A stretch of DNA of 64,000 nt from the NCBI GenBank assembly GCA_041666915.1, contig JBAYFZ010000001.1:9086-73085 (forward strand). The letters are read 5' to 3'. Source of the DNA: Minisyncoccota bacterium (lineage in GTDB: Bacteria; Patescibacteriota; Minisyncoccia; Phycocordibacterales; PALSA-1337). How positions within the stretch are numbered: the stretch's first letter is position 1; each line of letters begins with the position of its first letter. The notes under the pieces were generated by a model. It made no database searches. It had not been told where the DNA came from and saw only the letters and a program-made list of their open reading frames with translations. Positions 62,488 through 63,411 of the stretch are shown in pieces. A program made the position numbers and the translations under genes.

Positions 62488-63411
62488 ATGGCAAATAGAC
62501 ACTTATCACGTTCAGTAGTTCTCCAGTCACTCTTTGAGTGGGATTGTCACAATTGTCCTGATAAAGACATTTCTACGATTATAAATAGGAATGCCAAAGA
62601 GTTTGCTCCAGGTATGTCCGATGTTTCTTTCATGGAAGCTTTGGTAAAAGGAATTTTGGCAAAGAAAGAGGACTTAAATGAAATCATTGAGAAAGCTGCG
62701 CCAGATTGGCCAATAGATAAGATCTCTCCAGTTGATCGCAATGTCCTTCGCCTAGGTCTCTATGAGCTTCTATTTTCTGATCGCAAAGATGTGCCAGCCA
62801 AGGTTGCTATTAACGAAGCTATTGAACTCGCCAAGACTTTTGGCGGAGAGACTTCCGGACGTTTTGTAAACGGAGTTATGGGTGCTGTTTACAAAGAATT
62901 GGGTGAACCTGGTAAAGATGCTGTTTCTGTAAAGAAAACAAAGATAGTAGAAGTTCCTTATGAAAAAATGCCCATCCAACATTTGGGTGGTGCAGTTGTC
63001 TATGCTAGGGAAGGGCAGGATATTTACATGGCATTCGTCCATGATATTTTCGGTCACTGGACTCTTTCAAAAGGAAAGATTGCGGAGGGTATAGATCCAA
63101 AAGAAGGTACGATCATGAAGGTTAAAGAAGAGATCGGTCTAGATGTCTCTGTAGTTTCAGATCTCGGTAGTAATGAATATATTGCCAATGATCCTGAGAT
63201 TGGTAAGATTCGAAAACAGGTTCATTATTATTTGGCAGAATCAAGATTTACAGATTTAGTCCTCGCAAAGAAGCCTGGGCTTGATGATGCAAAATGGTTC
63301 AAGTTGGCTGACATTCTAGAATTAAATTTTTACAACGATATTTTACCTATTGTAACCAAGGCTGTGACGACGCTTAGTGAAGAGAGTTTAGAGGTAAGAG
63401 GTAAGAGTTAA
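62488..63411 (+). CDS. nusB: transcription antitermination factor NusB fused to a C-terminal Nudix-hydrolase-like domain
   Basis: NusB blocks 'RSVVLQSLFEW', 'DRNVLRLGLYELLF', 'INEAIELAKTFGGETSGRFVNGVMGAV'. C-terminal 'GHWTLSKGKIAEGIDPKEGTIMKVKEEIGL' matches the Nudix box Gx5Ex7REUxEExGU with R to K. Confidence 0.7.
   Translation: MANRHLSRSVVLQSLFEWDCHNCPDKDISTIINRNAKEFAPGMSDVSFMEALVKGILAKKEDLNEIIEKAAPDWPIDKISPVDRNVLRLGLYELLFSDRKDVPAKVAINEAIELAKTFGGETSGRFVNGVMGAVYKELGEPGKDAVSVKKTKIVEVPYEKMPIQHLGGAVVYAREGQDIYMAFVHDIFGHWTLSKGKIAEGIDPKEGTIMKVKEEIGLDVSVVSDLGSNEYIANDPEIGKIRKQVHYYLAESRFTDLVLAKKPGLDDAKWFKLADILELNFYNDILPIVTKAVTTLSEESLEVRGKS

What the first reader, a model, noticed from the sequence alone, without database searches (positions are those of the whole stretch)
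62488..63411. NusB fused to a C-terminal Nudix-like domain
Seen: the N-terminal 150 aa carry the NusB blocks. The C-terminal 150 aa contain 'GHWTLSKGKIAEGIDPKEGTIMKVKEEIGL'. This aligns to the MutT Nudix box '[30 protein letters not shown]' with the REUxEE arginine replaced by lysine.

Established knowledge: NusB normally stands alone at about 140 aa.

Inference: the fusion would couple an rRNA antitermination factor to nucleotide-diphosphate-X hydrolysis or binding (for example RNA cap or alarmone turnover). It could also be an inactive Nudix-fold binding module.
Basis: partly seen in the sequence, partly recalled or inferred. Interest (0 to 1): 0.6.

Follow-up and report, generated by a model that had tools for sequence, protein, structure and literature searches.

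The report
NusB fused to degenerate Nudix domain
In this ultra-small (Paceibacteria/CPR) bacterium the rRNA antitermination factor NusB carries a tethered Ap4A-hydrolase-type Nudix domain that keeps its nucleotide pocket but has lost a key catalytic glutamate. The fusion is real, widespread in the lineage, always sits next to RNase III, and has not been studied.

Summary
The ORF at 62488-63411 (+) is real and encodes 307 aa. Residues 1-138 are a bona fide NusB (Pfam 117.9 bits; TIGR01951 above its equivalog cut-off). Residues 141-152 are a disordered linker. Residues 163-300 are a Nudix fold (Pfam 34.5 bits vs 21.1; best match Aquifex Ap4A hydrolase 3i7u, TM 0.88).

In its own alignment Arg becomes Met and the Mg-binding Glu of 'RE' becomes Lys211. 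The upstream Glu becomes Ile202.

The fusion is lineage-wide:
- At least 594 species-level Patescibacteria genomes carry this Nudix type.
- 79 of 80 sampled loci are fused.
- RNase III lies immediately downstream in 80 of 80, and L32 upstream in about 75.

Orthologues toggle between canonical and degenerate boxes, with at least 20 changes at the 'RE' Glu. The predicted adenine/polyphosphate pocket (W191, K195, Y231, K240, K243, Y247, W270, Y282) never changes. The domain is as constrained as NusB.

Best reading: a catalysis-optional module, here probably non-hydrolytic, that binds an adenine polyphosphate on the rRNA antitermination/processing machinery. The precedent is TRPM2 NUDT9-H or NrtR. 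This is a new, uncharacterised variant of known kinds, of moderate interest.

The parts
62488..63411 (+). nusB::nudix ORF, 307 aa plus stop
   Evidence: Exact protein P0001 is in NCBI as 'transcription antitermination factor NusB [Candidatus Paceibacterota bacterium]'.
62488..62901 (+). NusB domain (aa 1-138), all-helical
   Evidence: PF01029 117.9 bits. TIGR01951 123.5 bits, above the 88.35 cut-off. PDB NusB 1tzt E 1.4e-19. Model helices 3-138, pLDDT above 90. Foldseek 3imq target TM 0.86, 1eyv 0.82.
62902..62973 (+). Linker (aa 139-162). Residues 141-152 are predicted disordered. A conserved PYExMP motif lies just before the Nudix fold.
   Evidence: pLDDT below 50 for residues 141-152 and pTM 0.57 for the whole chain. 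P157, M161 and P162 are conserved in both box groups.
62974..63387 (+). Nudix-fold domain (aa 163-300), Ap4A-hydrolase type
   Evidence: PF00293 34.5 bits. Family profile against PDB: 3i7u 6.9e-20, CT771 1.9e-14, Ndx1 2.3e-13, NUDT2 9e-10. Domain model pLDDT 96.1. Foldseek 3i7u TMq 0.75, TMt 0.88, rmsd 2.0.
63073..63141 (+). Degenerate Nudix box (aa 196-218), GKIAEGIDPKEGTIMKVKEEIGL
   Evidence: E7 is Ile, R15 is Met, E16 is Lys. E214, E215, G196 and G217 are kept.
63118..63120 (+). AAG codon for Lys211, replacing the Mg-coordinating or catalytic Glu of 'RE'
   Evidence: Sequence. K in 120 of 120 close homologues. hhalign places it at C. elegans E52, the Glu of RETKEE. PDB entry 4ijx is the NUDT2 E58A mutant.
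62155..62346 (+). rpmF (ribosomal protein L32), conserved upstream neighbour
   Evidence: PF01783 61.4 bits. L32 is immediately upstream in about 75 of 80 loci and in L081 and L086.
62416..62478 (+). Strong hairpin plus U-run between rpmF and nusB::nudix (terminator- or attenuator-like)
   Evidence: -35.5 kcal/mol, z -9.6, followed by UUUUUU. The consensus scanner did not list it.
63385..63442 (+). Hairpin of about 24 bp spanning the nusB::nudix stop codon, just upstream of rnc, with no U-run
   Evidence: -27.4 kcal/mol, z -5.1. Comparable junction hairpins occur in only about 11 of 80 related loci.
63454..64000 (+). rnc (RNase III), 5' part running off the window; conserved downstream neighbour
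   Evidence: PF14622 136.5 bits, PF00636 92.1 bits. rnc is immediately downstream in 80 of 80 loci, with gaps from -61 to +297 nt, and also in the distant fusions L081 and L082.

Best explanation
This gene most likely encodes the organism's NusB. No second NusB was found in the 64-kb window, but the rest of the genome was not searched. NusB is the S10/boxA-binding subunit of the rRNA transcription antitermination complex. Here it is extended by a flexible linker of about 25 residues and a Nudix domain derived from the Ap4A/ApnA-hydrolase branch (NUDT2, Ndx1, aq_158, CT771).

Shown: both domains, the fold, the lineage-wide fusion and the conserved rpmF - nusB::nudix - rnc gene order. Also shown: the loss of three of the five signature catalytic positions in this protein, with Lys fixed at the Mg-binding Glu. 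The residues that align to the adenine-stacking Tyr pair and the polyphosphate-binding Lys/Arg cluster are invariant. Purifying selection on the Nudix half equals that on the NusB half.

Inferred: the selected function of the domain is binding, not turnover, of an adenine-nucleotide polyphosphate. The ligand could be a free Ap4A-type dinucleoside polyphosphate or ATP-like molecule, or the polyphosphate or Np4-capped 5' end of the nascent pre-rRNA. In this protein the domain is probably non-hydrolytic, with Lys211 taking the place of the metal. In orthologues with a canonical box the bound ligand is probably also hydrolysed. The tether puts the module on the elongating rRNA transcription complex. 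There it would link nucleotide or alarmone status, or the 5' end of the transcript, to rRNA antitermination and RNase III processing.
For: Domain calls.
Two confident domains with a disordered linker.
Fold neighbours are Ap4A/Ap6A hydrolases, and the non-catalytic NrtR Nudix domain is in the top five. Profile neighbours.
Box degeneration is stable in 120 of 120 close homologues: E16 is K, R15 is unconstrained, E7 is V/I/L.
Among 50%-identity cluster representatives only about 9 of 57 fusions are canonical, whereas the standalone relatives of about 140 aa almost all are.
In 79 species genomes: 30 canonical, 32 K-type, 8 ERKEE, 9 other.
The 'RE' Glu column changes at least 20 times on the tree. 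W191, K195, Y231, K240, K243, Y247, D266, W270 and Y282 change 0 times, and E214/E215 change 1-2 times.
hhalign maps W191, K195, Y231 and Y282 onto W32, K36, Y76 and Y121 of the C. elegans Ap4A hydrolase. Their roles as phosphate ligand and adenine-stacking pair are from my own knowledge of Bailey 2002 and Abdelghany 2003.
The Nudix/NusB within-group identity ratio is 0.99 in K-type and 1.01 in canonical proteins, and dN/dS is about 0.06-0.11 in all regions.
Gene order is conserved in 80 of 80 loci and in fusions only about 30% identical.
Precedent: TRPM2 NUDT9-H is canonical in some lineages and vestigial in others. Loss of the first, Mg-coordinating Glu abolishes hydrolysis but not ligand binding, and catalysis is uncoupled from function (PMC6461439).
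Related architectures: HTH + Nudix with the same RK box (P0193) and NusB-Nudix-Rho_N (P0133).
Against: No ligand, binding or activity was measured, so inactivity is inferred from the motif alone. E214, E215 and D266/D267 remain and could support a non-canonical or Mn-dependent chemistry.
About 38% of orthologues, including L024 and L025 inside the window's own clade, keep a perfect box. Hydrolysis therefore cannot be irrelevant everywhere.
The ligand-pocket assignment rests on a profile alignment at about 28% identity plus remembered residue roles.
The dN/dS estimate uses only 7 pairs with saturated dS.
The NJ tree may inflate the change counts.
Whether this is the only NusB in the genome was not tested beyond the 64-kb window.
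Confidence: 0.5

Rival explanations
1. The domain is an active RNA 5'-end enzyme delivered by NusB, either an RppH-like pyrophosphohydrolase or an Np4/NAD decapping enzyme. It would convert the triphosphate or capped 5' end of the rRNA leader to a monophosphate. That would let 5'-end-dependent RNases clear or trim the leader alongside RNase III. The window protein would retain activity through a non-canonical mechanism.
For: The Ap4A-hydrolase branch includes or neighbours RppH and Dcp2: Dcp2 at 3e-9, BdRppH at 2.4e-4, and E. coli RppH-Ap4A 7sp3 in the fold list. There is a weak NCBIfam RppH hit. RppH removes Np4 caps (PMC8833179, PMC7044304). rnc adjacency is conserved. About 38% of orthologues have a canonical box. 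Some variants add a Rho_N nucleic-acid-binding motif.
Against: K211 replaces the Glu whose mutation inactivates NUDT9 (RILGEE mutant; PMC6461439). From my own knowledge, the equivalent mutations also inactivate NUDT2 (E58A) and MutT. This position flips at least 20 times among orthologues, which is unexpected for an essential catalytic residue. Some K-type members have a 1-aa deletion inside the box. The RppH model scores 19.3 bits against a cut-off of 118.
Confidence: 0.2
2. The Nudix fold serves purely as a protein-protein or structural module of the antitermination complex, with no small-molecule ligand. SuhB, an inositol monophosphatase fold, plays this kind of non-enzymatic structural role in the E. 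coli rrnTAC. The module might compensate for factors missing in reduced CPR genomes.
For: Catalytic residues are dispensable. The C-terminal helix DILPIVTKA and the PYExMP motif are strongly conserved and are not part of the Nudix signature. That the E. coli rrnTAC uses an enzyme fold structurally is from my own knowledge (entries 6tqn and 6tqo are listed).
Against: The invariant residues coincide with the nucleotide-pocket positions of Ap4A hydrolases, and E214/E215 are kept. A purely structural role would not require this. The model predicts no fixed contact with the NusB domain (pTM 0.57).
Confidence: 0.15
3. A fusion of convenience: a housekeeping Ap4A or NTP-sanitising Nudix hydrolase that became joined to NusB in streamlined genomes, with no functional coupling to antitermination.
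For: CPR genomes are compact and fuse genes. Canonical boxes persist in many members.
Against: A housekeeping hydrolase should not lose its catalytic Glu repeatedly while staying under strong purifying selection. The fusion and the rnc adjacency persist down to about 30% identity. No genuine split form was found; the one apparent split is an in-frame TAA.
Confidence: 0.1

Closest known systems
NusB (TIGR01951 / PF01029), e.g. E. coli NusB in the NusB-S10-boxA and rrnTAC structures (3imq, 3d3b, 6tqo)
   Same: Residues 1-138 are an equivalog-level sequence match with the same all-helical fold. The N-terminal arginines are conserved (R4 and R8, aligning to E. coli R6 and R10), as is the aromatic residue at the Y18 position (F16) and the AINEAIELAK..FVNGV core.
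   Different: It carries about 170 extra C-terminal residues, a linker plus a Nudix domain. Canonical NusB is about 140 aa and stands alone. The gene lies between rpmF and rnc rather than in the neighbourhoods I know from model bacteria (for example ribH-nusB in E. coli).
Ap4A/ApnA Nudix hydrolases: Aquifex aq_158 (3i7u), T. thermophilus Ndx1 (1vc8), C. trachomatis CT771 (4ilq), human NUDT2, C. elegans 1ktg
   Same: These are the best sequence-profile and fold matches. They share the W-T-x-(S/P)-K-G motif, the residues aligning to the adenine-stacking Tyr pair and the Lys cluster, and the EE pair.
   Different: This protein lacks the box Glu7 and Arg15. It also lacks the Glu of 'RE', which by my numbering is NUDT2 E58 and by hhalign is C. 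elegans E52. The domain is fused to NusB. Orthologues toggle between canonical and degenerate boxes.
Ligand-sensing Nudix domains with vestigial boxes: TRPM2 NUDT9-H, NrtR, Bacteroides AraR
   Same: A Nudix fold fused to another functional module. The box is canonical in some lineages and degenerate in others. The first box Glu is lost while the ligand pocket is kept, and catalysis is uncoupled from the main function (PMC6461439). NrtR (3gz8) is among the top fold hits and AraR (5bs6) is in the profile list.
   Different: Those domains bind ADP-ribose or arabinose and control a channel or a DNA-binding regulator. Here the partner is an RNA-binding antitermination factor, and the pocket resembles the Ap4A type rather than the ADPR type. 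No ligand has been shown.
RsmB/Sun (NusB-like N-terminal domain fused to an rRNA m5C methyltransferase)
   Same: This is a precedent for a NusB fold used as an RNA-targeting module fused to an rRNA-directed enzyme. The RsmB models give partial hits through the NusB region.
   Different: RsmB models score 11-56 bits against cut-offs of 269-540 bits. There is no methyltransferase domain. Here the NusB part passes the true NusB equivalog model.
RppH / Dcp2 RNA 5'-end Nudix enzymes
   Same: They belong to the same broad branch of the Nudix superfamily. RppH also binds Ap4A and removes Np4 caps (PMC8833179). The functional theme, the RNA 5' end, fits a fusion to NusB.
   Different: Similarity is weak: the RppH model scores 19.3 bits against a cut-off of 118, and BdRppH scores 2.4e-4. 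The catalytic Glu is absent here.

Membership tests
NusB (transcription antitermination factor) | Sequence match above curated family thresholds (Pfam PF01029; NCBIfam equivalog TIGR01951) | tested here: met
   117.9 bits against 23.1; 123.5 bits against 88.35
NusB (transcription antitermination factor) | All-alpha NusB fold | tested here: met
   Seven helices over residues 3-138 at pLDDT above 90. Foldseek 3imq target TM 0.86, 1eyv 0.82.
NusB (transcription antitermination factor) | N-terminal basic residues and the Tyr18-position aromatic residue, implicated in RNA and S10 binding in E. coli (roles from my own knowledge) | tested here: met
   R4 and R8 are nearly invariant in the family. They align to E. 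coli R6 and R10, and F16 aligns to Y18 (alignment).
NusB (transcription antitermination factor) | Binds S10 (NusE) and boxA RNA and supports rrn antitermination | not testable with these tools
   Needs biochemistry. No rRNA operon lies in the window.
NusB (transcription antitermination factor) | Is the organism's sole NusB, i.e. an orthologue rather than a paralogue | tested here: inconclusive
   No other NusB or Nudix is encoded in the 64-kb window. The rest of the 450-kb contig could not be read.
Nudix superfamily (PF00293) | Profile match above the gathering threshold | tested here: met
   34.5 bits against 21.1, residues 169-283
Nudix superfamily (PF00293) | Alpha/beta/alpha Nudix fold | tested here: met
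   Domain model pLDDT 96.1. 597 PDB matches with E <= 1e-3, and the 50 listed are all Nudix proteins.
Nudix hydrolase (catalytically competent) | Complete Nudix box GX5EX7REUXEEXGU | tested here: not met
   I202 for Glu7, M210 for Arg15, K211 for Glu16. G196, E214, E215, G217 and L218 are kept.
Nudix hydrolase (catalytically competent) | Hydrolysis of a nucleoside diphosphate-X substrate | not testable with these tools
   Needs an enzyme assay
Ap4A/ApnA hydrolase branch (NUDT2 / Ndx1 / aq_158 / CT771) | Closest relatives by sequence profile and by fold | tested here: met
   3i7u 6.9e-20, CT771 1.9e-14, Ndx1 2.3e-13. 3i7u TMt 0.88, rmsd 2.0.
Ap4A/ApnA hydrolase branch (NUDT2 / Ndx1 / aq_158 / CT771) | W-x-x-P-K-G motif, adenine-stacking aromatic pair and Lys cluster | tested here: met
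   W191, K195, Y231, Y282, K240 and K243 align to C. elegans W32, K36, Y76, Y121, K81 and K83 and are invariant in 79 genomes. The residue roles are from my own knowledge.
Ap4A/ApnA hydrolase branch (NUDT2 / Ndx1 / aq_158 / CT771) | Catalytic or metal-binding Glu of 'RE' (NUDT2 E58, C. elegans E52) | tested here: not met
   Lys211, which is K in 120 of 120 close homologues
RppH (RNA pyrophosphohydrolase) | NCBIfam equivalog score | tested here: not met
   NF001936: 19.3 bits against a cut-off of 118
RsmB | NusB-like domain plus a C-terminal m5C methyltransferase domain, with equivalog score | tested here: not met
   11-56 bits against cut-offs of 269-540. The hits cover only the NusB region.

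The most novel reading that the evidence does not exclude
With NusB docked on boxA/S10 and the Nudix domain gripping the 5' end, the antitermination complex would carry the leader's 5' end along with RNA polymerase. This would help it pair with the distal complement to form the RNase III processing stem. It would also make rRNA output sensitive to Ap4A-type alarmones, which compete for the same pocket. That would be a previously unknown physical link between 5'-end status, antitermination and rRNA maturation, and would explain the invariant nusB::nudix-rnc operon.
Probability: 0.12. Interest if true: 0.8.

Novelty: new variant of a known kind. Interest (0 to 1): 0.52.

Why it matters
NusB is one of the most conserved single-domain transcription factors, so a lineage-wide fusion is unusual. 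Here at least 594 species-level genomes carry this Nudix type, and 79 of the 80 loci examined have it fused to NusB. The partner is an Ap4A-hydrolase-type Nudix domain, locked in an operon with RNase III. That points to an unrecognised input into rRNA synthesis and maturation in Patescibacteria, a large and mostly uncultivated part of bacterial diversity with unusual ribosome biology.

The family is also a natural experiment in the enzyme-to-sensor transition. Close orthologues differ only in catalytic residues, which gives ready-made active and inactive pairs for biochemistry. If the ligand is Ap4A or an Np4/triphosphate RNA end, this would give a concrete receptor for a long-debated alarmone, or a new role for non-canonical caps.

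Public databases label the protein simply 'NusB', and I found no paper describing the fusion.

Tried and rejected
(1) Gene-calling, frameshift or assembly artefact: rejected, because 79 of 80 species genomes have one continuous ORF.

(2) A natural split nusB + nudix pair as Rosetta-stone evidence. L086 looked split, but the 'split' is a single in-frame TAA at the conserved Tyr135 codon with the same reading frame continuing. P0130 is a contig-end fragment. No genuine fission was found.

(3) RsmB-like or RppH membership: rejected on curated cut-offs.

(5) The search for related loci with the divergent alignment A2 failed because no stretch was conserved enough. The closer alignment A3 worked.

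(7) The listing of cluster members gave almost no taxonomy for the divergent fusions.

(8) Four literature searches (NusB+Nudix+fusion; NusB+CPR; NusB+Nudix; Nudix+Patescibacteria/Parcubacteria/CPR) found no description of the fusion. I also could not find an open paper confirming the Tyr76/Tyr121 stacking roles or the E58A effect, so those rest on my own knowledge.

(9) The hairpin before rnc as a conserved RNase III autoregulatory site: it is present in only about 11 of 80 loci, so it is not a family feature.

(10) Another Nudix or NusB in the window: none.
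Full report
OBSERVATION. The ORF at 62488-63411 (+) exists as stated and encodes 307 aa with an ATG start. Pfam places a NusB domain at residues 7-136 (E 5e-34, 117.9 bits, cut-off 23.1) and a NUDIX domain at residues 169-283 (E 2.4e-8, 34.5 bits, cut-off 21.1). NCBIfam's NusB equivalog TIGR01951 is passed (123.5 bits against 88.35). The RsmB and RppH models fall far below their cut-offs. Sequence matches to solved structures are NusB proteins for the N-terminal half (1tzt, 1.4e-19). 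For the C-terminal half they are CT771 and Ap4A hydrolases. The exact protein is in NCBI as 'MAG: transcription antitermination factor NusB [Candidatus Paceibacterota bacterium]' on a 450-kb contig.

THE NUDIX BOX WAS MISREAD BY ONE POSITION. The 23-residue box GX5EX7REUXEEXGU maps to residues 196-218, GKIAEGIDPKEGTIMKVKEEIGL. The positions are G196, I202 (Glu7), M210 (Arg15), K211 (Glu16, the Glu of 'RE'), V212, E214, E215, G217 and L218. So the Arg is Met, and the Lys replaces the Glu. PMC6461439 describes that first Glu as coordinating the catalytic Mg2+ in NUDT9, and RILGEE mutants as inactive. PDB entry 4ijx is the human NUDT2 E58A mutant. That E58 is the Glu of 'RE' follows from my own numbering of the NUDT2 sequence, and that E58A is catalytically dead is from my own knowledge.

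STRUCTURE. AlphaFold2 with a 56-sequence alignment gives two confident domains (mean pLDDT 89.8). Residues 141-152 fall below pLDDT 50 and pTM is 0.57, which indicates a flexible tether with no fixed inter-domain packing. The isolated C-terminal domain models at pLDDT 96.1 and pTM 0.88. Foldseek against the PDB ranks these first:
- Aquifex Ap4A hydrolase 3i7u: TMq 0.75, TMt 0.88, rmsd 2.0 A.
- Rv2985, a diadenosine polyphosphatase.
- CT771.
- The non-catalytic NrtR Nudix domain.
- Ndx1.

The NusB half matches 3imq (TMt 0.86) and 1eyv. A profile of the family's C-terminal halves hits 3i7u at 6.9e-20, CT771 at 1.9e-14, Ndx1 at 2.3e-13 and NUDT2 at 9e-10. It hits Dcp2 at 3e-9 and BdRppH at 2.4e-4.

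DISTRIBUTION.
- All 120 listed close homologues (77-100% identical) are about 300 aa and carry both Pfam domains.
- An exhaustive search of 1.84 billion cluster representatives with the C-terminal half alone found 626 hits with E <= 1e-3. Among the best 150, 39 are complete fusions of 270-400 aa, reaching down to about 30% identity in the Nudix half.
They are titled Paceibacterota, Parcubacteria, Taylor-, Nomura-, Kaiser- and Adlerbacteria. Several TPA records say 'Saccharibacteria', which I take to be a generic label.
- In the 80 loci fetched, 79 have NusB fused in the same ORF. The exception is cut by a contig end.
- RNase III follows immediately in 80 of 80 loci (gap -61 to +297 nt), and L32 (rpmF) precedes in about 75.
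- The same order holds for fusions only about 30% identical (L081, L082).

In the window itself the neighbours are rpmF at 62155-62346 and rnc from 63454.

EVOLUTION OF THE CATALYTIC MOTIF.
- In the 120 close homologues Glu7 is V, I or L. Arg15 is A, N, S, L or M, so it is unconstrained. Glu16 is Lys in 120 of 120, and E214, E215 and the glycines are invariant.
- Among 50%-identity cluster representatives only about 9 of 57 fusions have the full E-RE-EE set. The truly standalone relatives of about 140 aa almost all have it.
- Among 79 species genomes, 30 are canonical, 32 are the window's type (non-Glu7, xK), 8 are ERKEE and 9 are other.
- Canonical boxes (L024, L025) occur inside the window's own clade. 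Some K-type members have a one-residue deletion inside the box.
- Fitch parsimony on an NJ tree built without the box columns gives at least 20 changes at the Glu16 column, against a domain median of 9 per column.
- The same analysis gives 1-2 changes at E214/E215 and none at W191, K195, Y231, K240, K243, Y247, D266, W270 and Y282.
- The Nudix half is as conserved as the NusB half in both groups (identity ratio 0.99 and 1.01). dN/dS is about 0.06-0.11 in all regions, from 7 pairs with saturated dS.

WHAT THE INVARIANT RESIDUES ARE. A profile-profile alignment to the C. elegans Ap4A hydrolase was run on a sequence I first verified as identical to 1kt9. It maps W191 to W32, K195 to K36, K211 to E52, Y231 to Y76, K240/K243 to K81/K83 and Y282 to Y121. 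From my own knowledge of the literature on that enzyme (Bailey et al. 2002; Abdelghany et al. 2003), Y76 and Y121 sandwich the adenine ring, and K36 and the K79-K83 cluster bind the polyphosphate. I could not find an open paper to cite for this. So the nucleotide pocket is frozen while the hydrolytic machinery drifts.

INTERPRETATION. The pattern matches that documented for the TRPM2 NUDT9-H domain. That fused Nudix module has a canonical box in some lineages and a vestigial one in others. Loss of the first Glu abolishes hydrolysis but not ligand binding, an Arg-less box (AEFGEE) remains active, and catalysis is uncoupled from the protein's main function (PMC6461439). NrtR and Bacteroides AraR, both ligand-sensing Nudix regulators, appear among the fold and profile hits.

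Two further architectures of this Nudix type point the same way. P0193 is Sigma70_r4 + DnaA-C HTH + Nudix with the same RK box. P0133 is NusB-Nudix-Rho_N.

I therefore favour a catalysis-optional module that binds an adenine polyphosphate, probably non-hydrolytic in this protein, tethered to the organism's NusB. It would act at the rRNA antitermination/processing machinery. Whether the ligand is free (Ap4A-type alarmone or ATP) or is the 5' polyphosphate or Np4 cap of the nascent pre-rRNA cannot be decided here. RppH's documented handling of Ap4A and Np4 caps (PMC8833179, PMC7044304) keeps the RNA-end reading alive. So does the invariant rnc adjacency.

Steps shown: domains, fold, fusion, synteny, motif loss, pocket invariance and constraint. 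Steps inferred: ligand identity, loss of activity and the regulatory output.

RIVALS. There are three:
- An active RppH-like or decapping enzyme (0.2).
- A purely structural module, by analogy with SuhB in the E. coli rrnTAC (0.15).
- A fusion of convenience with a housekeeping hydrolase (0.1).

The repeated loss of the catalytic Glu under strong purifying selection argues against the first and third. The coincidence of the invariant residues with the nucleotide pocket argues against the second.

NOVELTY AND SCORE. Both domains are textbook families, and databases already record the two Pfam hits but name the protein just 'NusB'. I found no paper describing the architecture. It is a new, uncharacterised variant of known kinds. 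It is lineage-wide, under selection, in a conserved rRNA-related operon, and offers a built-in set of active-type and inactive-type boxes. The function is unproven and the finding rests on annotation-level evidence plus comparative analysis. Interest is about 0.5.

Noticed in passing
window 20679-20792, 36601-36692, 62000-62093: A small palindromic repeat element occurs in three intergenic copies. Each has perfect terminal inverted arms of about 27 nt (TGTCATTCCCGCGAAGGCGGGAATCCA ... TGGATTCCCGCCTTCGCGGGAATGACA) around an AT-rich core of 40-65 nt. Each arm contains its own mini-hairpin, CCCGCgaagGCGGG. None is expected by chance. It looks MITE- or REP-like, and the third copy sits directly upstream of rpmF.
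   Followed up: partly
window 63385-63442: A hairpin of about 24 bp (-27.4 kcal/mol, z -5.1) spans the nusB::nudix stop codon just upstream of rnc, with no U-run. It resembles the RNase III autoregulatory stem of the E. coli rnc leader (from my own knowledge). Its 5' arm encodes the extra C-terminal residues (…LEVRGKS) that make this protein 307 aa rather than about 300. Comparable hairpins occur in only about 11 of 80 related loci.
   Followed up: partly
window 62416-62478 and 62474-62490: A very strong hairpin (-35.5 kcal/mol, z -9.6) plus a U-run follows rpmF. Two overlapping TATAAT hexamers (62474-62479, 62480-62485) then lie directly before the ATG at 62488, with no visible Shine-Dalgarno sequence. 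The nusB::nudix mRNA may be leaderless or nearly so, or read-through of the hairpin may be regulated.
   Followed up: no
window 56563-58541 (+): Five tandem small membrane-protein genes each match T4SS_pilin (PF18895), and the first also matches TrbC/VirB2. This is a paralogous pilin array. A T2SSE-type ATPase lies at 29751-31073.
   Followed up: no
window 60212-61399 (-): A 395-aa protein has a Ser/Pro/Ala-rich low-complexity N-terminus, a coiled-coil region and a transmembrane segment. No Pfam family scores above its cut-off.
   Followed up: no
L086 941-943: In one metagenomic contig the fusion is interrupted by a single in-frame TAA at the conserved Tyr135 codon, so NusB (133 aa) and Nudix (141 aa, TTG start) were called as separate genes. 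It may be a nonsense mutation, a sequencing error or a rare real split.
   Followed up: yes
L084 3501-3953: A genuinely standalone, canonical-box relative of this Nudix domain (P0155, 37% identical) lies among an integrase, a DNA methylase and a Phage_rep_O-like gene. That is a phage or integrative-element context.
   Followed up: no
proteins P0133, P0131, P0193, P0263: Other architectures of this Nudix type exist. P0133 is NusB-Nudix-Rho_N, and P0131 has a similar C-terminal tail. P0193 is Sigma70_r4 + DnaA_C HTH + Nudix with an RK box. P0263 is a 1140-aa protein with seven partial matches to the N-terminal part of the domain.
   Followed up: partly
window 1087-9073, 11934-13868, 17639-20662, 27487-29307, 51057-53540: The general content of the window is housekeeping: rpoB, rpoC, dnaG, a UvrD/PD-(D/E)XK helicase-nuclease, BipA and gyrA. 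tRNA-Leu and tRNA-Lys lie on the minus strand at 61652-61939. No rRNA is in the window.
   Followed up: no
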